A DNA stretch of 64,000 nt from Minisyncoccota bacterium (lineage in GTDB: Bacteria > Patescibacteriota > Microgenomatia > UBA1400 > UBA12028): positions 146,093-210,092 of the forward strand of contig JACRHV010000006.1 of NCBI GenBank assembly GCA_016211945.1, written 5' to 3'. This document shows, in pieces, positions 7,646 through 60,887 of this stretch (positions within the stretch are counted from its first letter, which is position 1; each line of letters begins with the position of its first letter). The notes under the pieces were generated by a model. It was not told the origin of the DNA. It worked only from the letters and a program-made list of their open reading frames with translations, and searched no databases. A program made the position numbers and the translations under genes.

Positions 7646-8377
7646 ATGGTCGATCTTACATCAAGACAAGTCCAGATCCTCAAAGCTGTTATTGAGGAAT
7701 ATCTCGAAACAGCTGAGCCCGTTGGGTCTGATACCATCGACAAGAAGTATAACCTCGGGGTTTCTCCCGCAACCATCCGCAACGAGATGGTGAATTTGTC
7801 TGAACAAGGCTATCTTAAACAACCCCACACTTCAGCTGGCCGCATCCCCACAGCAACCGCACTCAAACTTTATGTCAAAGAACTCATGAACAAGAAGAAC
7901 CTGTCTGTTGCAGACGAAGTATCCATGAAGGAGCGGATTTGGGAGACAAAAGACGATCTCAACACACTTCTCCAGGAGTCCGCAAAGGTTTTAGCTGAGC
8001 GGACAAAATCCATTGGGATTGCGTTTACCGATGACAATAAACACGCCTATCACGCGGGATACGCACATATTCTCGATGCACCGGAATTTTTTGATCTTGA
8101 TGTGACACGCACCGTCCTTTCTCTCTTGGAAGAAACACGCCAACTTGATACGATCTTCAATAAAGTGTGGGGTGATGATGTTGTTCATCTTGTGTTAGGA
8201 GAGGACCTTGGGAATGTCTACCTCGAACCCGTAAGCATCATGTTTACAGATTTTACTTGTGCAAATCGACATTGTTCACTCGGAGTTATTGGTCCAAGTC
8301 GACTAAACTATCAACGCGTGGTACCAATGCTTGAGTATTTTCATGATCTCATCACAAGTGTGATTCCAAATAAGTAA
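7646..8377 (+). CDS. hrcA: Heat-inducible transcription repressor HrcA
   Basis: N-terminal wHTH 'LTSRQVQILKAVIEEY...VGSDTI...GVSPATIRNEM..LSEQGYL'. It is the first gene of a hrcA-grpE-dnaK-dnaJ operon. The alternative upstream start is at 7622. Confidence 0.9.
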   Translation: MVDLTSRQVQILKAVIEEYLETAEPVGSDTIDKKYNLGVSPATIRNEMVNLSEQGYLKQPHTSAGRIPTATALKLYVKELMNKKNLSVADEVSMKERIWETKDDLNTLLQESAKVLAERTKSIGIAFTDDNKHAYHAGYAHILDAPEFFDLDVTRTVLSLLEETRQLDTIFNKVWGDDVVHLVLGEDLGNVYLEPVSIMFTDFTCANRHCSLGVIGPSRLNYQRVVPMLEYFHDLITSVIPNK

Positions 8378-13214: not shown

Positions 13215-13302
13215 GGAGGAGTCGCCTAGTGGTCAATGGCAATTGCCTGGAAAGCAATGACTCGCAAGGGTCCCGTGGGTTCGAATCCCTCCTCCTCCGC
13301 AA
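13215..13302 (+). tRNA. tRNA-Ser (anticodon GGA), type II
   Basis: Acceptor GGAGGAG/CTCCTCC, anticodon loop CTGGAAA, a long variable arm, T-loop TTCGAAT, G73, and no encoded CCA. Confidence 0.8.
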
Positions 13303-17443: not shown

Positions 17444-17545
17444 ACCGGCAGTTTCCAAAAACCTTAACAAGTACTGCCTTGGAGCCGAGATTAACGGAGT
17501 GCTTTTTGCCCCCAAGTGAGGGTTTTGAACAAAAAAGGAGGACGT

Positions 17546-18214
17546 ATGACAAAACGACAGCGCGTCTTATTCCTCGGGAGTTCGTTGTGGGCGTTTAGCG
17601 AAGGTTTGTTCGGTCCACTCTTTGCTGTGTTTACCGAACAAATTGGTGGAAATCTTCTTGACGTTTCATGGGCGTGGACAATTTACCTCGTAGTGACAGG
17701 CTCACTTATTATTCTGATTGGTAAAGTTTCAGATAAAAAGTGGTTTAGCAAGTCATACGCAATGTATGCAGGATATGCGATCAACGCGTTGTGCACTTTT
17801 GCATATCTCCTCATCCGAACACCGACACAGTTGTTTCTCGTTGGAGCATTAAGTGGGTTGGCTAATGCTCTTATCGAACCAAATTGGAACAGTCTTTTTA
17901 CGCGATACGAAGATAAAAAACAATCAGGATCTGCCTGGGGATGGGTTGGCGGACAGGCACAAATACTCAGTGGTCTTGCGGTATTGATTGGTGGGCTTAT
18001 TGTACAATATTTCTCATTTTCTGCGCTCTTCATTACGATGGGAATCGTACAAGTGATATCATTGTATGTGCAGATTGACGTGCTTCAGTTCCAGGTACGA
18101 AAAAGCACGAAAAAACTTTTATCAAAAAGGGTGTCTCTGCGGGTGCGAGTGAGGTATGGAAAAATCCGTCGTCGAACTCGAAAAACGCGAAGAATTGCTT
18201 GGGGACTTGCATAA
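17546..18214 (+). CDS. MFS-like 6-TM membrane protein, probably truncated (half-transporter with a basic non-native tail)
   Basis: Six hydrophobic helices resembling one MFS repeat. The C-terminal 40 aa are an Arg/Lys-rich low-complexity tail that looks like out-of-frame read-through. Confidence 0.45.
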   Translation: MTKRQRVLFLGSSLWAFSEGLFGPLFAVFTEQIGGNLLDVSWAWTIYLVVTGSLIILIGKVSDKKWFSKSYAMYAGYAINALCTFAYLLIRTPTQLFLVGALSGLANALIEPNWNSLFTRYEDKKQSGSAWGWVGGQAQILSGLAVLIGGLIVQYFSFSALFITMGIVQVISLYVQIDVLQFQVRKSTKKLLSKRVSLRVRVRYGKIRRRTRKTRRIAWGLA

Positions 18215-18274: not shown

Positions 18275-18359
18275 GGAGACGTCGGATAGTGGTCATTCCA
18301 GAGGTTTGCTAAACCTCGGCCTCAAAAGGGCCTCGTGGGTTCGAGTCCCACCGTCTCCG
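18275..18359 (+). tRNA. tRNA-Ser (anticodon GCU), type II
   Basis: Acceptor GGAGACG/CGTCTCC, anticodon loop TTGCTAA, a long variable arm, T-loop TTCGAGT, G73. Confidence 0.8.
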
Positions 18360-18388
18360 CAATCGAAAATTCGGGCTATAATTTCACC

Positions 18389-19015: not shown

Positions 19016-19063
19016 ACTCAAAAGATCTCTTTTATAAGTACGGAATGATAGAATTGCTTACCT

Positions 19064-19151
19064 GGAGAGGTCGCCTAGTGGTCGATGGCATCAGTTTACT
19101 AAACTGACATATCGCAAGATATCGAGGGTTCGAATCCCTCCCTCTCCGCCA
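19064..19151 (+). tRNA. Type-II (Ser-like) tRNA with an atypical anticodon loop TTACTAA (anticodon ACU) and a genomically encoded CCA
   Basis: Acceptor GGAGAGG/CCTCTCC, a perfect T-arm GAGGG-TTCGAAT-CCCTC, a long variable arm, G73, and a CCA at 19149-19151. The D-arm is nearly identical to the tRNA-Ser(GGA) gene. Positions 34-36 read A-C-U. Confidence 0.65.
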
Positions 19152-19159
19152 AAACTTAC

Positions 19160-19830
19160 AGTAATCAACACAAACTAACAGAAAATAACAATTATCTTCA
19201 CTAATCTAAATATAAAAGAGCTTATTAACGAGTTGTCTGTCACTTTTCAAATTCATCAGGTACCTTATAGGGTCTTTTCCATTGTGTTTTTATGTATTCT
19301 TTGACCACATCACTGGTCGCACCGTCTGAGACGGATGCCACATAATAACCCGTCGCCCAAAGCACTCCCTCTTTCCATATGTACTGTTTCAATTGTGGAA
19401 GAAATTCTTCTCTAAGTTTTTTTGAGGAAATTCCTTTGAGTAATTGGACTATCTTTGTCGGAGAATATGTGGGAGGAGCATCCACTAACACATGTATGTG
19501 ATCGGGCATGACCTCTTGCGCAATGATTTTAAATTTATAGGCTTTAGCAATTTCTTCAAGTATTTCTTTTAGCCTTACAGGTATCTTCCCTACAAGAACT
19601 TCCCGTCGATATTTAGGAATCCACACAAAATGATATTTAATGTTATGACGAGAATGGGAGCCAGATCGCGTATTATCGCGATAAAAATAATGTAGAACAG
19701 CTTTTAGTGTCTCAAATCTTTGAAGTTGAGTTTCTGAAAGAGCCATAGTCAAATTGTACCAAACGAACCCCGCCCCATTCGGATATTCTTTGTATCCCTT
19801 GCCAATATTAAAATATGTGAATGACAAAGT
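19160..19830 (-). mobile_element. IS200/IS605-family element or remnant (tnpA only; ends not defined)
   Basis: Contains a Y1 HUH transposase gene but no tnpB. It lies 90 nt downstream of a tRNA 3' end. The boundaries are approximate. Confidence 0.4.
19240..19827 (-). CDS. tnpA: IS200-type Y1 (HUH) transposase TnpA
   Basis: 'YHFVWIPKYRR', the HUH motif 'HIHVLV', and the catalytic-Tyr region 'LWATGYYVASVSDG'. The probable true start is the internal Met 'MALSETQ' at about 19746. Confidence 0.85.
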   Translation of the reverse strand: MSFTYFNIGKGYKEYPNGAGFVWYNLTMALSETQLQRFETLKAVLHYFYRDNTRSGSHSRHNIKYHFVWIPKYRREVLVGKIPVRLKEILEEIAKAYKFKIIAQEVMPDHIHVLVDAPPTYSPTKIVQLLKGISSKKLREEFLPQLKQYIWKEGVLWATGYYVASVSDGATSDVVKEYIKTQWKRPYKVPDEFEK

Positions 19831-20327
19831 TTGATACAGAAAGATTATTTCTCTTTACCCATTCTTACTCAGGAAAAGTCATCGCAGAACACATCACGAA
19901 ACGGTGTAAGGATGACACAGCCCGATTCGAAAGAGAGGTCCATCTTTTAGCCAAAGTGTTACGCTTTCGACATGCTGACCTCAAAAAACTTATCATTTAT
20001 CCCATAACTCTTGATGTCTCTATAAAAATTATGAAGCCAGATCTTCTGGCGTTTCTTGAGGTGGAAAGAGAACTTGAATGTATCGCTTCAGAAAAATTGG
20101 ATGAGTATTCAACTGCCAAAGAAGACTACCAACGACAAATGCTCACACCAGCCATTGAACGAGTTGCTGGAAATGCACTTGCGGGAATTGACGATGATTC
20201 TGAGTTTCAGAATAAAATTCAAGAAAAAATACAGGAACATGGGCGAGTATATTATAAAGTGGCTCGAAAGTATCGACTTCCCACAATGCGGATTGTGCCT
20301 TTTCTCTTGAGGCTCATTGCTTGTTAA
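19821..20327 (+). CDS. Hypothetical protein (168 aa)
   Basis: Intact ORF divergent from tnpA and convergent with the helicase gene, with overlapping stops. No recognisable motif. Confidence 0.4.
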   Translation: MTKFDTERLFLFTHSYSGKVIAEHITKRCKDDTARFEREVHLLAKVLRFRHADLKKLIIYPITLDVSIKIMKPDLLAFLEVERELECIASEKLDEYSTAKEDYQRQMLTPAIERVAGNALAGIDDDSEFQNKIQEKIQEHGRVYYKVARKYRLPTMRIVPFLLRLIAC

Positions 20328-22612
20328 ATCGAAAACAGGCTTTGTTGGTTTTCATCAATCTGTTTTCTTTTTGTTACTGGGGTAGTTATTTTGGTGAGTC
20401 CTAATGTTCGATATGTTCGCAGTCTTTTAAAGTACATCAACTTGAGCATTGGCACCTGGTCATCAAAATAATCATGAACTACTGCTATTGTTTTTCCCTC
20501 AAATGGTCGCTGGACTCTGCCCACATATTGAATAAGCTTGCCCTTCCACGAAAAAGGGAATGCAAAAAAGACGTGGGAAACTGCTGGCCAGTCAAAGCCT
20601 TCACCAATTAGCTTGCCAGTTGCGATTAAAAGCTGGAAACGCTCTTGCATCATGCGTTTTGCAATGCGCTCACGATTCTTTTTGGTCATATTTCCGGTAG
20701 CAATAGCAGCATGAATATTTTTTATTTTTTCGCGAATCAAAGTCATGAGAGTTTCACAGTGTTCGATGCGCTCAGTCAGAACAATGCATTTTGCTCCTGT
20801 ATTCAAAACCTCCACAATGTCACTAGCAATTTGGTCATTACGTTTTGCATCAGCAATAAGAAACTTTCCTAACTCTTGAAATTCGTCTATTTTGTGAGCA
20901 ACTGTAAAAGCTGTTTTTCGTGTCATAAGTTGTGTCTCTACAGATGGTGACTCCACATTTTGCGGATTCTCTTTTGTCTGCTCAGCTACCGAAATAATAG
21001 TGTCACTTACGTAAAAGTGCATCAGTTTTTCCAGTTTATCTTTTCGATACGCTGTTGCGGTTAATCCCAATACATATTTGGCAGAAAATTGTTTAACCAC
21101 ATCGCTGAATGTGTTTGCTGGCACGTGATGGCACTCATCAATAATGACCAATCCAAATTGATTTTTGACGTCATCTAAATTCCTGCGCGTTAGTGTCATG
21201 TAGGAAGCAACGGTGACTTTTTTTCCGATTCGCCATTTATTGCCAATGGTACCTAAGTCTTCCTTGGTGAGTTTGAAATAGGTATTGAATCGTCTGATCC
21301 ATTGATCAAGCAATATCGTTGTGTGGACGACAATAAGTGTTTTTTGCTGAAGTTTCTTCATCAGAGCTAATGCCACCATCGTTTTACCAAAACCAGGATG
21401 AGCCTCCAGAATGCTGCGATTTTGTAGCAGGAGAGATTTGAGAATTTTTTGCTGATCCGCGTGCAATTTTAGCGTTGATGGAAATTGCATCTTTTTTGTG
21501 GTGATTCGTTCATCTTTTATTTCAACTGTTAGTTGTTCTTTTTTGATAAAGGCAAGAAGTTTATTTAAAAATCCAAGTGGCAAAGCAACATGATCAGGAA
21601 ATACTTCTAGAGTTTTGATGGACCGAGCGGTCTGCCATGTTGAGTACCCAAATCGTTCTTTGACATAAAATTCAGGATTGGGAAAATTCAGCTCTCTTTT
21701 CAGGAATCGATACAATTTATCTGGTAACCAAAGGCTTGGAATAACAATGTTGGACGAAAGCATGGCATGAACTTCCTGGCCTTGGGTTGTTGAAACTGTT
21801 GGTTCACTTTCTTCTTGAGTTACAATTTCTCTTTTTGTTTCGTCTTTGCTCTGTTCCATTTTATATTCAGCAGAGGTTTCTTTCACTAAATGAGCTGTAA
21901 TTGGGTTTGCCTGATACTGAATTTTTGTTTTCTCGTTCATGCAATGATCAATATCATTCAGGCTCACTCTTTTGATCGACTCAAGGAATTGCCATTGATC
22001 TAGACAAACTTCACCAACAGAATCAATAAACACTGTATTTCCTTCTATCACCGCTTTTCCCTGCAACGGCAAACAAATCAGATTCCCAAACCCTTTTCCG
22101 GTATGTTCATCCTGACTGGGAAACATGCGGTCAAACGTCTTACGAGTGGTTATTCCAGCTTGAAAGAGCAACAGTTTCCCTATTTGTCGTGCTTTGTATG
22201 CAACAATGCGCTGATCAAAAAAGATCCATACATGTCCGCCCTCACCCGAACGGGATCGTTCAATATATGCAGAGATGTTGAGTAGCTTTGCCTGCTCAAT
22301 GATTTTGCGAGCCAATATAAGCCAATCTTTCCCATCAAAATCAATGACGAGAAACGCTGCCGTATTATCAGGAAATAACGGATACACGCCAATCGTTTGA
22401 TTCCCAAGCAAGTGATCACGAATCACATCATCCGTTAATACGTGTGATTTTTGATTCAAGTTATACACTGGGGCGTAACCAGTCTTTTTGTTCATCATGT
22501 CCACCCAATAGTGTGCAAAGACATCGTCGCGAGTGGAAAAAAGCGAACGAAATAGATGTATTTGACTAGGCAAAAATGTGAGCATGTGAGCTCTATTATA
22601 TCTCGAGGTCAA
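20324..22612 (-). CDS. Fusion protein: N-terminal archaeo-eukaryotic-primase-type primase-polymerase (PrimPol) domain and C-terminal DExH SF2 helicase
   Basis: N-terminus: AEP motif I 'FLVIDFDGKD' (DxD) and motif II 'RSGEGGHVWIFF' (sGxGxH). C-terminus: helicase motif I 'HPGFGKTM', motif II 'VIIDECHH', motif III 'GLTATAYR', and motif VI 'QYVGRVQRP'. A single 762-aa ORF. Confidence 0.7.
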   Translation of the reverse strand: MTSRYNRAHMLTFLPSQIHLFRSLFSTRDDVFAHYWVDMMNKKTGYAPVYNLNQKSHVLTDDVIRDHLLGNQTIGVYPLFPDNTAAFLVIDFDGKDWLILARKIIEQAKLLNISAYIERSRSGEGGHVWIFFDQRIVAYKARQIGKLLLFQAGITTRKTFDRMFPSQDEHTGKGFGNLICLPLQGKAVIEGNTVFIDSVGEVCLDQWQFLESIKRVSLNDIDHCMNEKTKIQYQANPITAHLVKETSAEYKMEQSKDETKREIVTQEESEPTVSTTQGQEVHAMLSSNIVIPSLWLPDKLYRFLKRELNFPNPEFYVKERFGYSTWQTARSIKTLEVFPDHVALPLGFLNKLLAFIKKEQLTVEIKDERITTKKMQFPSTLKLHADQQKILKSLLLQNRSILEAHPGFGKTMVALALMKKLQQKTLIVVHTTILLDQWIRRFNTYFKLTKEDLGTIGNKWRIGKKVTVASYMTLTRRNLDDVKNQFGLVIIDECHHVPANTFSDVVKQFSAKYVLGLTATAYRKDKLEKLMHFYVSDTIISVAEQTKENPQNVESPSVETQLMTRKTAFTVAHKIDEFQELGKFLIADAKRNDQIASDIVEVLNTGAKCIVLTERIEHCETLMTLIREKIKNIHAAIATGNMTKKNRERIAKRMMQERFQLLIATGKLIGEGFDWPAVSHVFFAFPFSWKGKLIQYVGRVQRPFEGKTIAVVHDYFDDQVPMLKLMYFKRLRTYRTLGLTKITTPVTKRKQIDENQQSLFSI

Positions 22613-22691: not shown

Positions 22692-23897
22692 CTAAGCAAG
22701 CTTAATTTCATCTGGAATGAACGTGAGTTTAGTTTTAATGAAGTCCAACATCGTATTAAAAGTTCCTTCTTCCTGCGGAGAGATATTCAGACTGTAAAAG
22801 GTTGTTTTGCCTACTTCTCTTCTGTTAACAATTTTTTGGTCAGTCGCTTGCTGGAGGTAGGTGACGAATGTTTGGCGAGCCATTTTGCCGTTAACATTTT
22901 TGAAAAGATTTTTAAACTGGACTTCATGTTTTTTAATCAGGGGTTTGCAGATACGAGTGATCTGCTCATCGGTGTTCTGACTATCCAGAAATGCCTTTCG
23001 TTTTACTTCAAGGCTTGTTTTCACTACTGACAAGATGGATAAAGCAAAGGCTTCCTGAAAAAATCCCACAAAATGATTCAAGTTCTTTCGTTCCAAAGAA
23101 AACAATAAGTACTTATAGTACCGTGCTTTTTCTTTATGATAGTAATAGGAGGTACTGTACAGATTTTTTTTGTTCACTCCTAATGAACGAAGAAAAATGT
23201 GTTCGAGAATTCTTGATACTCGTTTATTGCCATTAGTGAAGGGATGGAGGGCATATAAAGCAGTATGAAAAATGCCAATACTAGTAATAGCTCTATTATT
23301 TTGAATCCAAATAACGAGCTCTTGTACACCAGTCTCGATTTCATGATAAGGTGCTGGTTTATACTCGCCCACACGAATATTGTCATTGTCTCGCCATTTT
23401 CCTGATTTATAGACATCGAAATGTGGTAAGTGCGTTTGAAACACATCCAAACCTTGGGTTAATTTTTGATGAAGCTGCAAAATAAAGTCTGGAGTAACTT
23501 CATCAATCTGAATCTCTTGATATTCTCGAAAGGTTTTGGCAATGTTAAAGAATTCCAGTTTTTCATAATCCTTCTGCAATAGCTTCTTTCCCTTTTTCAA
23601 CTTACCACTGATAAACGAATAGTCTTCATTTTTGAGTAAAAAGTCATATACATCCTGGGCTTCTTGAAGCGTTAATGTCGAGTTTTCGGCTTTTGAGATC
23701 GCAAACGAAGCCAACAGTTCATTTTTGCTCAGTAGATTCTTTTCAATATCTGGATCTAAAAAGAGCTGTTCATATTGGTTTAAATCCCTGTCTAAATCAA
23801 GCAATTCCTCATTGGAGAATGGTAAAAGACTTGGGGTTAGGATCAATTGATTCAGAAAAGGGCTGGTGAAGGGGTTATTGGTAGTAATTGTGGTCAT
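22692..23897 (-). CDS. Fic/Doc family protein (Doc-like 'NGNKR' variant of the Fic motif)
   Basis: Core motif 'HPFTNGNKRVSR', with HxFx(D/N)GN(G/K)R and a Lys at the second Gly position as in Doc. It has extended N- and C-terminal regions and sits on the same strand 80 nt upstream of the PrimPol-helicase gene. Confidence 0.8.
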   Translation of the reverse strand: MTTITTNNPFTSPFLNQLILTPSLLPFSNEELLDLDRDLNQYEQLFLDPDIEKNLLSKNELLASFAISKAENSTLTLQEAQDVYDFLLKNEDYSFISGKLKKGKKLLQKDYEKLEFFNIAKTFREYQEIQIDEVTPDFILQLHQKLTQGLDVFQTHLPHFDVYKSGKWRDNDNIRVGEYKPAPYHEIETGVQELVIWIQNNRAITSIGIFHTALYALHPFTNGNKRVSRILEHIFLRSLGVNKKNLYSTSYYYHKEKARYYKYLLFSLERKNLNHFVGFFQEAFALSILSVVKTSLEVKRKAFLDSQNTDEQITRICKPLIKKHEVQFKNLFKNVNGKMARQTFVTYLQQATDQKIVNRREVGKTTFYSLNISPQEEGTFNTMLDFIKTKLTFIPDEIKLA

Positions 23898-24980: not shown

Positions 24981-25394
24981 ATGGAAATAACGCAGGCAGA
25001 TCATGAACTTATCAAACATGCAGAACAAACAATTACGCGCCACTTTTCTCCAAAACACCATCGACTCGCCACCTGTATTGCAACAAAATCAGGGCAAATT
25101 ATCACAGGAATTAATGTTGAGGGATCATTTGGGTGCAATGATGTGTGTGCGGAACAAATAACTTTGGGGAATGTCTTGTCTCATGGAGTAAAAGACATTG
25201 CATGTATGGTTACGGTAAAACATCCAAAAGCAGAGGATCCAAATCAATCACTACGCGTAGTTTCGCCCTGTGGGAAATGTCGAGAACTTATTCTCGACTA
25301 TGCGCCAGAAGCCTGGGTTATCATCAAAAATGGGAGCACGCTCATAAAAGTACATGCAAAAGACCTCTTGCCATATCGGTATTCCAAGGCATAA
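24981..25394 (+). CDS. Cytidine deaminase-family zinc enzyme, blasticidin-S-deaminase-like
   Basis: 'GINVEGSFGCNDVCAEQ' (C/H-A-E) and 'SPCGKCRELILD' (PCxxC), with an overall 137-aa layout colinear with BSD/CDA tetrameric deaminases. Confidence 0.8.
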   Translation: MEITQADHELIKHAEQTITRHFSPKHHRLATCIATKSGQIITGINVEGSFGCNDVCAEQITLGNVLSHGVKDIACMVTVKHPKAEDPNQSLRVVSPCGKCRELILDYAPEAWVIIKNGSTLIKVHAKDLLPYRYSKA

Positions 25395-25634: not shown

Positions 25635-26036
25635 ATGAACTTACCTTTTGATGTTGGTATCTCCCCAACACTTCACATTCGTGGCCTCATTGCAAATCGC
25701 AATATTAAAAAAGGCGAAGTTGTTGAACGTGCTCCGGTGGTTTTGATCAGTAAAAAAGAAGAGGAGCATCTCAAAAAAACTGTGCTTTGGAAGTATTACT
25801 ACGAATGGTCAAACAAACATCATGTGATTGTGTTGGGATATGGCAGTCTATACAACCATTCATATGAACCAAACGTGCGGTATGGGTTTAATTTTAAATG
25901 GAAAGTACTTGTGTATAAGGCGATTAAACCAATAAAAAAAGGTGAGGAATTGATGGTGAACTACAACTGGGATCCGGATAACAAAGACCCTGTTGATGAT
26001 TTTTTGATGGACTTCAACGCGCATATGAAAGCGTAG
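25635..26036 (+). CDS. SET-domain protein (putative lysine methyltransferase)
   Basis: 'GYGSLYNHSYEPN' (NHSxxPN) and 'EELMVNY' (ELxxxY) SET signatures. Confidence 0.75.
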   Translation: MNLPFDVGISPTLHIRGLIANRNIKKGEVVERAPVVLISKKEEEHLKKTVLWKYYYEWSNKHHVIVLGYGSLYNHSYEPNVRYGFNFKWKVLVYKAIKPIKKGEELMVNYNWDPDNKDPVDDFLMDFNAHMKA

Positions 26037-53217: not shown

Positions 53218-53253
53218 AGCGTTTATGGTTAAGAAAATGAATGTCGAGCTTTG

Positions 53254-53325
53254 TGCTCCCAAGTGGAATTGAACCACTATCTCAAGGTTCGGAACCTCAC
53301 GGTCTATCCATTAGCCTATGGGAGC
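53254..53325 (-). tRNA. tRNA-Arg (anticodon CCG)
   Basis: Reverse complement GCTCCCA...TGGGAGC-A, anticodon loop TTCCGAA, T-arm AGTGG-TTCAATT-CCACT. 72 nt. Confidence 0.75.
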
Positions 53326-60704: not shown

Positions 60705-60815
60705 CTTTCTTATGCAAGGTGGTCTGCGAATGCATCACCTTGCGTGAGCGAAACAATCTCATGCAAGCAAAAATGATGTCTTTTTGCGAAGCATGATGAT
60801 TGATGAGCGAACCTG

Positions 60816-60887
60816 TGCCTCCATGTGGAATCGAACCACAACCCCAAGCTCCGCAAGCTCGTATTCTATCCATTGAACTATGGAGGC
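60816..60887 (-). tRNA. tRNA-Arg (anticodon GCG)
   Basis: Reverse complement GCCTCCA...TGGAGGC-A, anticodon loop TTGCGGA. Same 72-nt architecture as the tRNA-Arg(CCG) gene. Confidence 0.7.

What the first reader, a model, noticed from the sequence alone, without database searches (positions are those of the whole stretch)
19064..19830. Atypical Ser-like type-II tRNA (anticodon ACU, encoded CCA) directly flanked by an IS200 transposase
The tRNA at 19064-19151 has perfect acceptor and T arms, a long variable arm, G73 and a Ser-type D-arm nearly identical to the tRNA-Ser(GGA) gene. Its 7-nt anticodon loop is TTACTAA, placing A-C-U at positions 34-36. A34 is otherwise essentially restricted to tRNA-Arg(ACG, inosine). 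AGY codons are already served by the tRNA-Ser(GCU) gene 800 nt upstream. It is also the only tRNA in the window with a genomically encoded CCA. An IS200-type tnpA lies 90 nt downstream. Three readings are possible: a recently duplicated and mutated tRNA-Ser (G34A), a tRNA whose A34 is deaminated to I and so expands decoding (AGA would then be misread), or a tRNA-like attachment site or remnant of a mobile element that brought its own tRNA copy.
Basis: seen in the sequence. Interest (0 to 1): 0.5.

Follow-up and report, generated by a model that had tools for sequence, protein, structure and literature searches.

The report
Serine tRNA with "forbidden" ACU anticodon
This is a genuine serine tRNA gene with anticodon ACU, a type that reviews call universally absent, and it belongs to a conserved family found in over 100 ultra-small (CPR) bacterial species and many phages; the transposase beside it is incidental.

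Summary
Window 19064-19151(+) is a well-formed type-II tRNA-Ser with loop UUACUAA (anticodon ACU) and an encoded CCA. An IS200 tnpA ends 88 nt downstream on the other strand.

- **Not a recent G34A copy.** It is 67-68% identical to this genome's other Ser tRNAs, but 89% identical to a tRNA-Ser(ACU) from another CPR genome.
- **A real family.** A restrictive scan found the family in 108 species genomes, mostly titled Patescibacteria/CPR. It coexists there with Ser GCU, UGA, CGA and GGA, and often sits just downstream of tRNA-Ser(GCU), as here. Thirteen stem pairs show compensatory changes.
- **Not element-borne.** None of the 108 loci has the IS200 or the neighbouring island genes, and there is no att-like repeat.
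- **Also in phages.** At least 112 viral contigs carry tRNA-Ser(ACU) in tRNA arrays.

AGA codons sit at invariant Arg positions, so the code is standard.

Most likely this is a fifth serine isoacceptor that reads AGU by Watson-Crick pairing, with A34 left unmodified. Reviews state that A34 in the Ser/Arg box is universally missing, so the family is a natural counter-example. The state of A34 and whether the genome has TadA were not determined.

The parts
19064..19151 (+). tRNA-Ser(ACU) gene, type II, with encoded CCA. A member of the CPR tRNA-Ser(ACU) family.
   Evidence: ARAGORN. Rfam RF00005 at 57.5 bits. Identical in an independent Logan contig. 89% identical, with the anticodon masked, to the ACU tRNA of L212. 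Fits the family cloverleaf.
19098..19100 (+). Anticodon A34-C35-U36 within the 7-nt loop TTACTAA (19096-19102).
   Evidence: Read directly from the sequence. ARAGORN places the anticodon at position 35 of the gene.
19149..19151 (+). Genomically encoded 3' CCA.
   Evidence: Encoded CCA is variable across CPR Ser tRNAs: 36 of 104 ACU genes and 15 of 55 GCU genes have it. It is therefore not diagnostic.
18275..18360 (+). tRNA-Ser(GCU), the conserved upstream partner of the ACU gene.
   Evidence: In 44 of 108 related loci a GCU gene lies within 1 kb of the ACU gene, and in 35 of them it is upstream on the same strand.
19240..19749 (-). IS200-type Y1 transposase gene. It is adjacent but not part of the tRNA feature (an incidental insertion). 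Other in-frame starts lie upstream, up to the TTG at 19827; the Logan gene call starts one codon inside the 19749 ATG (168 aa).
   Evidence: PF01797 at E=2e-40. PHROG transposase. No homologue beside the ACU tRNA in any of 108 loci (tblastn).

Best explanation
This is a functional chromosomal gene for a fifth serine isoacceptor, tRNA-Ser(ACU). It is inherited within Patescibacteria (CPR) as a distinct orthologous family.

**Proposed mechanism.**
1. SerRS charges it through the long variable arm, G73 and the acceptor and D-stem elements. SerRS does not read the anticodon, so a G34-to-A34 change costs nothing in charging. This step is inferred from established SerRS biology.
2. A34 most likely stays unmodified. 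It pairs by Watson-Crick geometry with the U of AGU, the more frequent AGY codon. This relieves tRNA-Ser(GCU) of a G:U wobble. GCU is still needed for AGC, and AGA/AGG remain arginine codons. This step is inferred.

**What is shown:** the gene, its structure, its conservation and covariation, its coexistence and linkage with tRNA-Ser(GCU), and the standard meaning of AGA.

**Neighbours.** The IS200 and the PrimPol-helicase/Fic genes downstream are unrelated later insertions next to a tRNA gene.
For: - **Intact tRNA.** Its score is typical of the window's tRNAs. G1-C72, G2-C71, A3-U70, C11-G24, G73 and a 5-bp variable-arm stem are all visible in the sequence.
- **Family membership.** A scan of 185,579 species genomes with a restrictive pattern gave 111 loci, 108 of them with ARAGORN tRNA-Ser(act). 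By their titles they span many CPR classes.
- **Orthology.** With the anticodon masked, the best match of each ACU tRNA is an ACU tRNA from another genome (mean 0.96; 0.89 for the window). Identity to Ser tRNAs of the same locus is only 0.60-0.68.
- **Structural selection.** 13 of 27 pairs show compensatory changes and almost no pair is broken.
- **Long residence in the host.** The D-arm type of the ACU tRNA tracks that of the host's own GCU tRNA.
- **Coexistence.** ACU occurs with Ser GCU, UGA, CGA and GGA in the same 8-kb loci. GCU lies within 1 kb in 44 loci, upstream on the same strand in 35, as in the window. A G34 and an A34 tRNA kept together in one box is the opposite of the pattern in inosine-using boxes, where the G34 gene is lost (PMC8007984).
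- **Standard code.** AGA encodes invariant Arg in DnaK (KRLxGR, residue 75), AlaRS (RHxTFFEMLGN, residue 79, and residue 338) and PNPase (residues 342 and 359). AGU encodes the conserved Ser469 of PNPase.
- **Codon demand.** AGU is about twice as frequent as AGC in the window. It is the most used Ser codon in the viral loci that carry ACU.
- **No tRNA-Arg(ACG).** The CPR loci have GCG 18 times and ACG never, and the window also has GCG. ACG is the anticodon whose presence correlates with tadA (PMC8007984).
- **Phage parallel.** 112 of 120 viral loci have tRNA-Ser(ACU) in arrays of A/U-ending-codon readers. Only 2 of them also carry GCU.
- **Experimental precedent.** An engineered E. coli Ser-tRNA(ACU) improved growth in several media (preprint 10.64898/2026.05.15.725136). 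Unmodified A34 pairs best with U (PMC11066159 abstract).
Against: - Nothing here shows expression, charging or the chemical state of A34.
- No sigma-70-type promoter was called upstream. There is only a TGATAGAAT extended -10-like motif at 19046-19054, seen by eye.
- AGU is not enriched relative to other NNU/NNC boxes. The U-fraction is 0.65 for AGY against 0.60-0.74 for the others, so there is no codon-usage signature specific to this tRNA.
- The family is patchy. Only 11 of the 61 complete Patescibacteria genomes I could read in a published table have a fifth Ser gene by tRNAscan-SE (PMC13011429 supplement), so it is dispensable.
- The scan pattern fixed the loop, T-arm and acceptor 3' strand. 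This inflates similarity among ACU members.
- Absence of TadA from this genome was not shown. In E. coli an engineered split-box A34 tRNA (Phe-AAA) appeared to be deaminated.
Confidence: 0.7

Rival explanations
1. A34 is deaminated to inosine by a TadA-like enzyme. The tRNA then reads AGU, AGC and AGA, which expands decoding or causes regulated Ser/Arg ambiguity at AGA.
For: The loop shares U33-A34-C35 and A37-A38 with the TadA substrate tRNA-Arg(ACG) (sequence; substrate loop recalled from memory). An engineered split-box A34 tRNA seemed to be deaminated in E. coli. One related locus (L190) has a TadA-like deaminase gene 7 nt (start codon at 7753) after the tRNA.
Against: - AGA is frequent (9.4 per 1000 codons) and sits at invariant Arg positions in DnaK, AlaRS and PNPase.
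- tRNA-Ser(GCU) is retained next to ACU, unlike in inosine-using boxes.
- No tRNA-Arg(ACG) occurs in the window or in the 108 loci; GCG is used instead.
- The L190 deaminase family scores 69-77 bits against a cut-off of 150 for TadA. Elsewhere it sits among purine-metabolism genes with no ACU tRNA nearby.
- The only deaminase found in the window (24981-25394) has a CAE motif, which is the cytidine-deaminase type.
- U36 replaces the G36 of the TACG editing motif.
Confidence: 0.1
2. The tRNA arrived on, or marks the integration site of, a mobile element. The candidates are the IS200 or the low-GC segment with PrimPol-helicase and Fic genes, or a CPR phage. Under this reading it is accessory cargo, not a host gene.
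For: The segment at about 18.3-26.1 kb has lower GC (0.35-0.41, against 0.43-0.50 in the flanks). It holds an IS200 tnpA, a PrimPol-SF2 helicase and a SoFic-like gene. tRNA-Ser(ACU) is common in phage tRNA arrays. The distribution across CPR genomes is patchy.
Against: - No direct repeat of the tRNA 3' end of 14 nt or more occurs within 17-27 kb, and no integrase-type Pfam match among the genes scanned downstream of the tRNA.
- None of the island proteins has a homologue within a few hundred nt of the ACU tRNA in the 108 loci. The only hits are weak Fic and GNAT matches in L139 and L227.
- The tRNA body is host-like. Its D-arm is nearly identical to that of the genome's own tRNA-Ser(GGA), and its acceptor stem is identical to that of its tRNA-Ser(CGA).
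- The linkage to tRNA-Ser(GCU) is conserved.
- No tRNA with the main CPR-type D-arm and an ACU loop was found in 2.9 million viral contigs.
- The Logan contig break at the tRNA is a 25-nt overlap between two contigs, which points to a repeated k-mer and not to an insertion polymorphism.
Confidence: 0.08
3. It is a decaying or neutral copy: a recent G34A mutant of a tRNA-Ser(GCU) paralogue, or a pseudogene with no role.
For: AGY codons are already covered by tRNA-Ser(GCU) 703 nt upstream. The lower anticodon stem and the loop (GTTT-N-CTAAAC) are the same as in the GCU tRNA apart from position 34.
Against: It is 67% identical to the window's GCU tRNA outside the anticodon. All stems are perfect and the Rfam score is normal. 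The same anticodon is kept in 108 species while the stems covary.
Confidence: 0.03
4. The tRNA has a role outside ordinary decoding. It could be a Ser donor for cell-wall or natural-product synthesis, or an AGY reader that escapes an anticodon nuclease aimed at tRNA-Ser(GCU). The second idea suits the phage copies.
For: The tRNA is redundant with GCU for decoding. It is enriched in phages, which are known to carry nuclease-resistant tRNA variants (established knowledge, not tested here). Defence-type genes lie nearby in the window.
Against: G18-G19, the TTCGAAT T-loop and a G/C-rich T-stem are those of ordinary elongator tRNAs. They do not resemble the EF-Tu-avoiding non-proteinogenic tRNAs (recalled from memory). 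In phages it sits among ordinary decoders. No Fem/MurM-type gene was seen nearby.
Confidence: 0.07

Closest known systems
Bacterial tRNA-Ser(GCU), the canonical AGY reader
   Same: Type-II architecture, G73, Ser acceptor and D-stem elements, and the same lower anticodon stem and loop context (G30-U31 / UU-N-CUAA / A39-C40). It serves the same codon box.
   Different: Position 34 is A, not G. The body is only 60-68% identical to the GCU tRNA of the same genome. It forms its own orthologous group and coexists with GCU.
tRNA-Arg(ACG) with TadA, the only widespread bacterial A34 tRNA (read as ICG)
   Same: A34 with U33, C35, A37 and A38 in a 7-nt loop.
   Different: ACG serves a four-codon family box, where inosine is harmless. 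It has C32 and G36. These genomes do not have it and encode tRNA-Arg(GCG) instead. Inosine in ACU would misread AGA (Arg).
Unmodified-A34 tRNAs of Mollicutes and organelles, such as Mycoplasma tRNA-Thr(AGU) and Mollicutes lacking TadA (PMC3711424)
   Same: A34 left unmodified in reduced genomes that have lost tadA. This is the proposed state here.
   Different: Those tRNAs sit in four-fold family boxes, where reading all four codons is safe. This one sits in a split Ser/Arg box.
Engineered E. coli Ser-tRNA(ACU) (serV G34A; preprint 10.64898/2026.05.15.725136)
   Same: Same anticodon on a native Ser backbone. It was translationally active, had a low predicted risk of mistranslation and improved growth in several media.
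   Different: It is a laboratory construct, and the authors state that this anticodon is absent from bacterial repertoires. The gene here is natural and conserved.
Phage-encoded tRNA-Ser(act), for example Rhizobium phage RHph_Y65 (MN988525.1) and at least 112 IMG/VR contigs
   Same: Type-II Ser tRNA with a TTACTAA loop, often with an encoded CCA.
   Different: The phage copies have ordinary bacterial GGC(C/T)GAG-type D-arms. They sit in tRNA arrays and almost never accompany a GCU gene (2 of 112). The main CPR body type was not found in viral contigs.

Membership tests
Bacterial type-II tRNA-Ser | Cloverleaf that scores as a tRNA with a covariance model | tested here: met
   RF00005 at 57.5 bits against a gathering score of 29, full-length match to positions 1-71. 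ARAGORN tRNA-Ser.
Bacterial type-II tRNA-Ser | Long variable arm with a stem, which is the main SerRS recognition element (established knowledge) | tested here: met
   ATATC-GCAA-GATAT forms a 5-bp stem with a GNRA loop. The arm covaries across the family.
Bacterial type-II tRNA-Ser | G73 discriminator, G1-C72, G2-C71, A3-U70 and C11-G24 (E. coli Ser identity set, recalled from memory) | tested here: met
   All are present in the sequence. G1-C72, G2-C71, A3-U70, G4-C69 and G73 (100 of 101) are invariant or nearly so in 101 family members; C11-G24 is kept in 92 and covaries in the rest. Part of that invariance was imposed by the scan pattern.
Bacterial type-II tRNA-Ser | Aminoacylation with serine by SerRS | not testable with these tools
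   This needs a charging assay or acylation-sensitive tRNA-seq.
CPR tRNA-Ser(ACU) orthologous group (defined here) | Closest relatives outside the anticodon are ACU tRNAs of other genomes, not paralogues of the same genome | tested here: met
   Window: 0.89 to the ACU tRNA of L212, against 0.67-0.68 to its own GCU, CGA and GGA tRNAs. All 109 ACU tRNAs have an ACU nearest neighbour.
CPR tRNA-Ser(ACU) orthologous group (defined here) | Linkage to tRNA-Ser(GCU) upstream on the same strand | tested here: met
   In the window GCU lies 703 nt upstream on the + strand. The same arrangement within 1 kb occurs in 35 of 108 loci.
TadA substrate (tRNA-Arg ACG-like anticodon arm) | Loop C32-U33-A34-C35-G36-A37-A38 (TACG motif), with tadA present in the genome | tested here: inconclusive
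   The loop is UUACUAA, so positions 32 and 36 differ. No TadA homologue was found in the 64-kb window by tblastn. The rest of the genome could not be searched.
IS200/IS605 element (the neighbour) | Y1 HUH transposase | tested here: met
   PF01797 at 138 bits. The HIHVLV and EYIKTQ motifs are visible in the translation.
IS200/IS605 element (the neighbour) | Subterminal hairpin ends and additional copies | not tested
   The element ends were not mapped. No second copy was looked for outside 17-27 kb; exact-protein look-ups with two of the possible start codons found nothing, and the Logan gene call (168 aa) was not tried.
tRNA-targeted integrative element (att site) | Direct repeat of the tRNA 3' end at the far border, plus an integrase | tested here: not met
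   No such repeat of 14 nt or more occurs in 17-27 kb. No integrase-type Pfam match in any of the genes scanned downstream of the tRNA (not all ORFs up to NusA were scanned).

The most novel reading that the evidence does not exclude
tRNA-Ser(ACU) is a natural, conserved tRNA with unmodified A34 in a split codon box. It is used by many CPR bacteria and many phages as a dedicated AGU reader. It would be tolerated because SerRS ignores the anticodon and, in CPR, because tRNA-Arg(GCG) has replaced ACG and TadA is presumably gone. That would overturn the stated rule that A34 is universally missing from the Ser/Arg box in cells and phages. It would also give a natural system for asking why ANN anticodons are otherwise avoided.
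Probability: 0.55. Interest if true: 0.75.

Novelty: new variant of a known kind. Interest (0 to 1): 0.6.

Why it matters
Reviews and a 2026 experimental study treat A-starting anticodons in split codon boxes as universally missing or "prohibited" in bacteria and phages, and they call the reason a deep mystery (PMC8007984; preprint 10.64898/2026.05.15.725136).

A conserved, structurally constrained tRNA-Ser(ACU) family in more than 100 CPR species and more than 100 viral contigs is a natural exception, and it occurs in exactly the one split box whose synthetase ignores the anticodon. In the E. coli experiments, Ser-tRNA(ACU) was one of the two split-box ANN tRNAs reported as improving fitness (with Ile-tRNA(AAU)).

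This turns an argument from absence into something testable:
- Is A34 left unmodified?
- How is AGA protected from misreading?
- Does loss of TadA permit the tRNA to exist?

For annotation, the practical message is that such genes in CPR genomes and phages should not be dismissed as errors or pseudogenes.

Tried and rejected
- **Synteny through the neighbouring S51 peptidase.** Its homologues (59-70% identity) sit in unrelated contexts, so they gave no orthologous site.
- **"TOTE conflict system" as a tRNA-linked system.** TOTE stands for TPR/OB/TBP/Effector. The Pfam hit only names the primase domain and has no tRNA connection.
- **TadA-like deaminase directly after the ACU tRNA in L190.** Its family is small and scores below the TadA cut-off. 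Elsewhere it lies among purine-metabolism genes with no ACU tRNA, so I treat the adjacency as coincidence.
- **Deaminase in the window (24981-25394).** It has the CAE...PCGKC motifs of cytidine deaminases, not the HAE motif of TadA.
- **Logan contig ending at the tRNA 3' end.** I first read this as an insertion polymorphism. Two contigs in fact overlap by 25 nt in the T-arm and acceptor, which indicates a repeated k-mer.
- **The 232-aa MFS protein upstream as a gene truncated by an island.** No C-terminal half is present in the window, and a similar match of about 180 aa exists in L208 with no long ORF there. This is unresolved and probably not a truncation.
- **BLAST of viral ACU tRNAs against cultured phages.** Most hits were UGA, GCU or CGA Ser tRNAs. 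Only Rhizobium phage RHph_Y65 was confirmed as ACU.
- **Other searches that found nothing.** An exact-allele scan of JGI metagenomes gave no match. Exact-protein look-ups of the transposase gave no match.
- **Literature.** Full-text searches for the anticodon in bacteria, CPR or phages found no description of this tRNA.
- **Codon usage.** I looked for AGU enrichment specific to the AGY box and found none.
Full report

Yes. ARAGORN calls a tRNA-Ser with anticodon ACT at 19064-19151(+). The Rfam tRNA model scores it 57.5 bits against a gathering score of 29, which is in the middle of the range for the six tRNAs of the window (53.7-62.6).

Read directly, the gene has these features:
- a perfect 7-bp acceptor stem, GGAGAGG/CCTCTCC;
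- a D-arm that differs at one base from that of tRNA-Ser(GGA) at 13215-13300;
- a 5-bp anticodon stem, TCAGT/ACTGA, around the loop TTACTAA, which places A34-C35-U36 at 19098-19100;
- a variable arm, ATATC-GCAA-GATAT;
- a canonical T arm, G73 and an encoded CCA.

It is the only window tRNA with an encoded CCA. tRNA-Ser(GCU) lies 703 nt upstream on the same strand. An IS200-type Y1 transposase ORF (19240-19749, minus strand, PF01797 at E=2e-40) ends 88 nt downstream.

A sequencing error is excluded. An independent Logan assembly of run SRR12113407 has the identical sequence, and the same anticodon recurs in many other genomes (section 3).

**2. What organism is this?**

The neighbouring S51-peptidase gene is identical to a protein from a "Candidatus Pacebacteria" MAG, on a 228-kb contig. 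Its homologues are all from Patescibacteria/CPR. The window has 43% GC, uses all three stop codons and has ordinary codon usage.

**3. The tRNA belongs to a large family.**

*In phages.* I scanned IMG/VR viral contigs for a type-II tRNA with the loop TTACTAA and a standard T-loop. ARAGORN finds tRNA-Ser(ACT) in 112 of those loci, with 75 distinct sequences, mostly inside phage tRNA arrays. ARAGORN's call includes a terminal CCA in 47 of them.

*In species genomes.* I then scanned 185,579 species-representative genomes with a stricter pattern that also fixes a CPR-like T-arm and acceptor 3' strand. This returned 111 loci, 108 of them with tRNA-Ser(ACT). By record title they come from Levy-, Gottesman-, Woese-, Roizman-, Collier-, Nomura- and Magasanikbacteria, Paceibacterota, Saccharibacteria, WWE3 and unclassified Patescibacteria.

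Many TPA MAGs titled "uncultured Gammaproteobacteria/Pseudomonadales", and a few with other non-CPR titles, carry the same CPR-type tRNA body. One of these sits on a 936-kb contig. I suspect these titles are wrong but did not verify the taxonomy.

The count of 108 is a lower bound, because the pattern was restrictive.

**4. It is an orthologous, selected gene, not a fresh mutant.**

- With the anticodon masked, every ACU tRNA is most similar to an ACU tRNA of another genome (mean best identity 0.96). Identity to Ser tRNAs of the same locus is 0.60-0.68.
- The window's gene is 0.89 identical to the ACU tRNA of L212, with the same acceptor, variable arm, T arm and CCA. It is 0.67-0.68 identical to its own GCU, CGA and GGA tRNAs.
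- Part of the similarity among ACU genes was imposed by the scan pattern. The low identity to same-genome paralogues was not.
- RNAalifold on 101 distinct sequences recovers the cloverleaf with the extra arm. Thirteen of 27 pairs show changes on both sides. For example, D-stem pair 13:25 is AU 72, UA 21, CG 8; anticodon-stem pair 31:43 is GC 69, AU 32; T-stem pair 66:80 is UA 40, AU 29, CG 18, GC 12. Almost no pair is broken.
- The D-arm type of the ACU tRNA follows that of the host's own GCU tRNA (19 of 23 in the GAG class). This argues for long residence in the host rather than recent import.

**5. It is a fifth isoacceptor with conserved linkage.**

In the same 8-kb loci the ACU gene occurs together with Ser GCU (61 genes), UGA (25), CGA (19) and GGA (14). 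A GCU gene lies within 1 kb in 44 loci, and in 35 of them it is upstream on the same strand. That is the arrangement in the window.

Encoded CCA is found in 36 of 104 ACU genes and in similar fractions of the other Ser tRNAs, so it says nothing special about this gene.

The family is not universal in CPR. In a published table of complete Patescibacteria genomes, tRNAscan-SE finds five Ser genes instead of four in only 11 of the 61 rows I could read (5 of 12 Microgenomatia, 4 of 20 Paceibacteria). This comes from the PMC13011429 supplement. The table does not give anticodons, so it is only a proxy for the presence of ACU.

**6. The IS200 and the mobile-element idea.**

- No homologue of the transposase or of the PrimPol-helicase occurs in any of the 108 loci. 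Fic and GNAT give only weak matches, in L139 and L227 (tblastn).
- The stretch 17-27 kb contains no repeat of the tRNA 3' end and, among the genes scanned there, no integrase-type match.
- The segment from about 18.3 to 26.1 kb is lower in GC. It carries an IS200 tnpA, a PrimPol-SF2 helicase fusion, a SoFic-like protein, a GNAT, a cytidine-deaminase-like protein and a SET-domain protein. It is probably a variable region. The tRNA is simply its neighbour.
- The main CPR body type (GTCGCATAGTGG...TTACTAAA) does not occur in 2.9 million viral contigs.
- The Logan contig that ends at the tRNA overlaps the next contig by 25 nt in the T-arm and acceptor. That is an assembly break at a repeated k-mer, not evidence of polymorphism.

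**7. How does it most likely work?**

*Charging (inferred).* SerRS does not use the anticodon; this is established knowledge. A Ser tRNA can therefore change position 34 without losing its identity. AGY is the only NNY half-box whose synthetase has this property. That would explain why ACU, and not AUU, AUC or AUA, is the A34 anticodon found in nature.

*Decoding (inferred).* The simplest reading is that A34 stays unmodified and pairs with U, so that AGU is read without G:U wobble. Several results point that way:
- AGA is common (9.4 per 1000 codons in the window and 11.8 in the CPR loci).
- In the window AGA encodes invariant arginines: DnaK residue 75 in KRLxGR, AlaRS residue 79 in RHxTFFEMLGN and residue 338, and PNPase residues 342 and 359. 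AGU encodes the conserved Ser469 of PNPase. An inosine that reads AGA would therefore be costly.
- The GCU gene is kept next to ACU. Boxes that use inosine lose the G34 gene (PMC8007984).
- The window and the CPR loci encode tRNA-Arg(GCG) and CCG but never ACG. ACG is the tRNA whose presence correlates with tadA (PMC8007984).
- In phages the ACU gene sits among readers of A/U-ending codons and almost never with GCU (2 of 112). AGU is the most used Ser codon in those loci, at 19 per 1000.
- Unmodified A34 pairs best with U (PMC11066159 abstract). An engineered E. coli Ser-tRNA(ACU) improved growth and had a low predicted risk of mistranslation.

*Weaknesses.*
- Expression, charging and the state of A34 are untested.
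- There is no codon-usage signature specific to the AGY box.
- No promoter was called upstream. Only a TGATAGAAT motif at 19046-19054 was seen by eye.
- I could not establish whether this genome lacks TadA. The one TadA-like gene found next to an ACU tRNA (L190) belongs to a sub-threshold family that sits among purine-metabolism genes elsewhere.

**8. How does it compare with what is known?**

It meets every sequence-level criterion of a bacterial type-II tRNA-Ser. What is unusual is the anticodon.
- A 2026 preprint says fifteen ANN anticodons are absent from bacterial repertoires and calls this a deep mystery.
- My full-text searches found no description of a natural bacterial or phage tRNA-Ser(ACU).
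- Automated annotation does record one, in Rhizobium phage RHph_Y65 (MN988525.1, note "tRNA-Ser(act)"). So the genes are in databases but seem not to have been recognised as a class. I cannot exclude a description in literature outside the searchable library.

**9. Verdict.**

The finding is real. The IS200 link and the three proposed origins do not hold. The gene is one member of a conserved tRNA-Ser(ACU) family in CPR bacteria, with a parallel in phages, and that family contradicts a stated general rule. I classify it as a new variant of a known kind, with interest 0.6. The decisive missing piece is direct tRNA sequencing to settle A versus I at position 34.

Noticed in passing
window 60815-60887(-) and 53253-53325(-); CPR loci L128-L238: The window encodes tRNA-Arg(GCG) and tRNA-Arg(CCG). 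Across the 108 CPR loci GCG occurs 18 times, CCG 8 times and ACG never. So these CPR genomes seem to use G34 for CGY, like Thermotogae and Spirochaetes, which suggests that TadA is absent.
   Followed up: partly
window 20324-22612(-) and 22692-23897(-): A PrimPol/AEP domain fused to an SF2 helicase (Pfam AEP-TOTE; PADLOC CRISPR-associated PrimPol, 184 bits) sits next to a SoFic-like Fic protein (PADLOC SoFic, 105 bits). This is a possible defence or mobile-element module in a low-GC stretch.
   Followed up: partly
window 24981-25394(+), 25635-26036(+): A 137-aa deaminase with CAE and PCGKC motifs (cytidine-deaminase or blasticidin-S-deaminase type, not TadA), followed by a small SET-domain protein, lies just upstream of nusA.
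   Followed up: partly
L190:7753-8000 (CAZSJW010000021.1): A TadA-like CDA-fold deaminase gene starts 7 nt after a tRNA-Ser(ACU) (start codon at 7753). Its few homologues score below the TadA cut-off and lie among purine-metabolism genes. In two short contigs they lie after a tRNA-Ser(GGA). The repeated position after a Ser tRNA is unexplained.
   Followed up: partly
viral loci L008-L127; CPR loci L134, L218: Other supposedly missing anticodons turn up. In the viral loci there are tRNA-Gly(ACC) three times, tRNA-Phe(AAA) once and tRNA-Ile(UAU) 21 times. Two CPR loci have tRNA-Ile(UAU). These are ARAGORN calls only and were not inspected.
   Followed up: no
L131, L132, L149, L167, L168 and others (record titles): Many TPA MAGs titled "uncultured Gammaproteobacteria" or "Pseudomonadales" carry CPR-type Ser tRNAs and tRNA-Arg(GCG). 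One sits on a 936-kb contig. The titles look wrong, or the bins are contaminated.
   Followed up: no
window 19125-19149; L001 end and L253 start: Two Logan contigs of run SRR12113407 overlap by exactly 25 nt (AGGGTTCGAATCCCTCCCTCTCCGC) inside the tRNA. This implies that another locus in that sample shares the same T-arm and acceptor sequence, probably another Ser tRNA such as the UGA isoacceptor, which is missing from the window.
   Followed up: partly
window 17516-18214(+): A 232-aa protein covers only the N-terminal half of the MFS_1 profile and ends about 60 nt before tRNA-Ser(GCU). No C-terminal half is present in the window. A match of similar length exists in L208. It may be a natural half-size protein or a truncation.
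   Followed up: partly
window 19046-19054: A TGATAGAAT motif, which resembles an extended -10 element, lies 10-18 nt upstream of the tRNA 5' end. The consensus promoter scan did not call it, because there is no -35 element.
   Followed up: no
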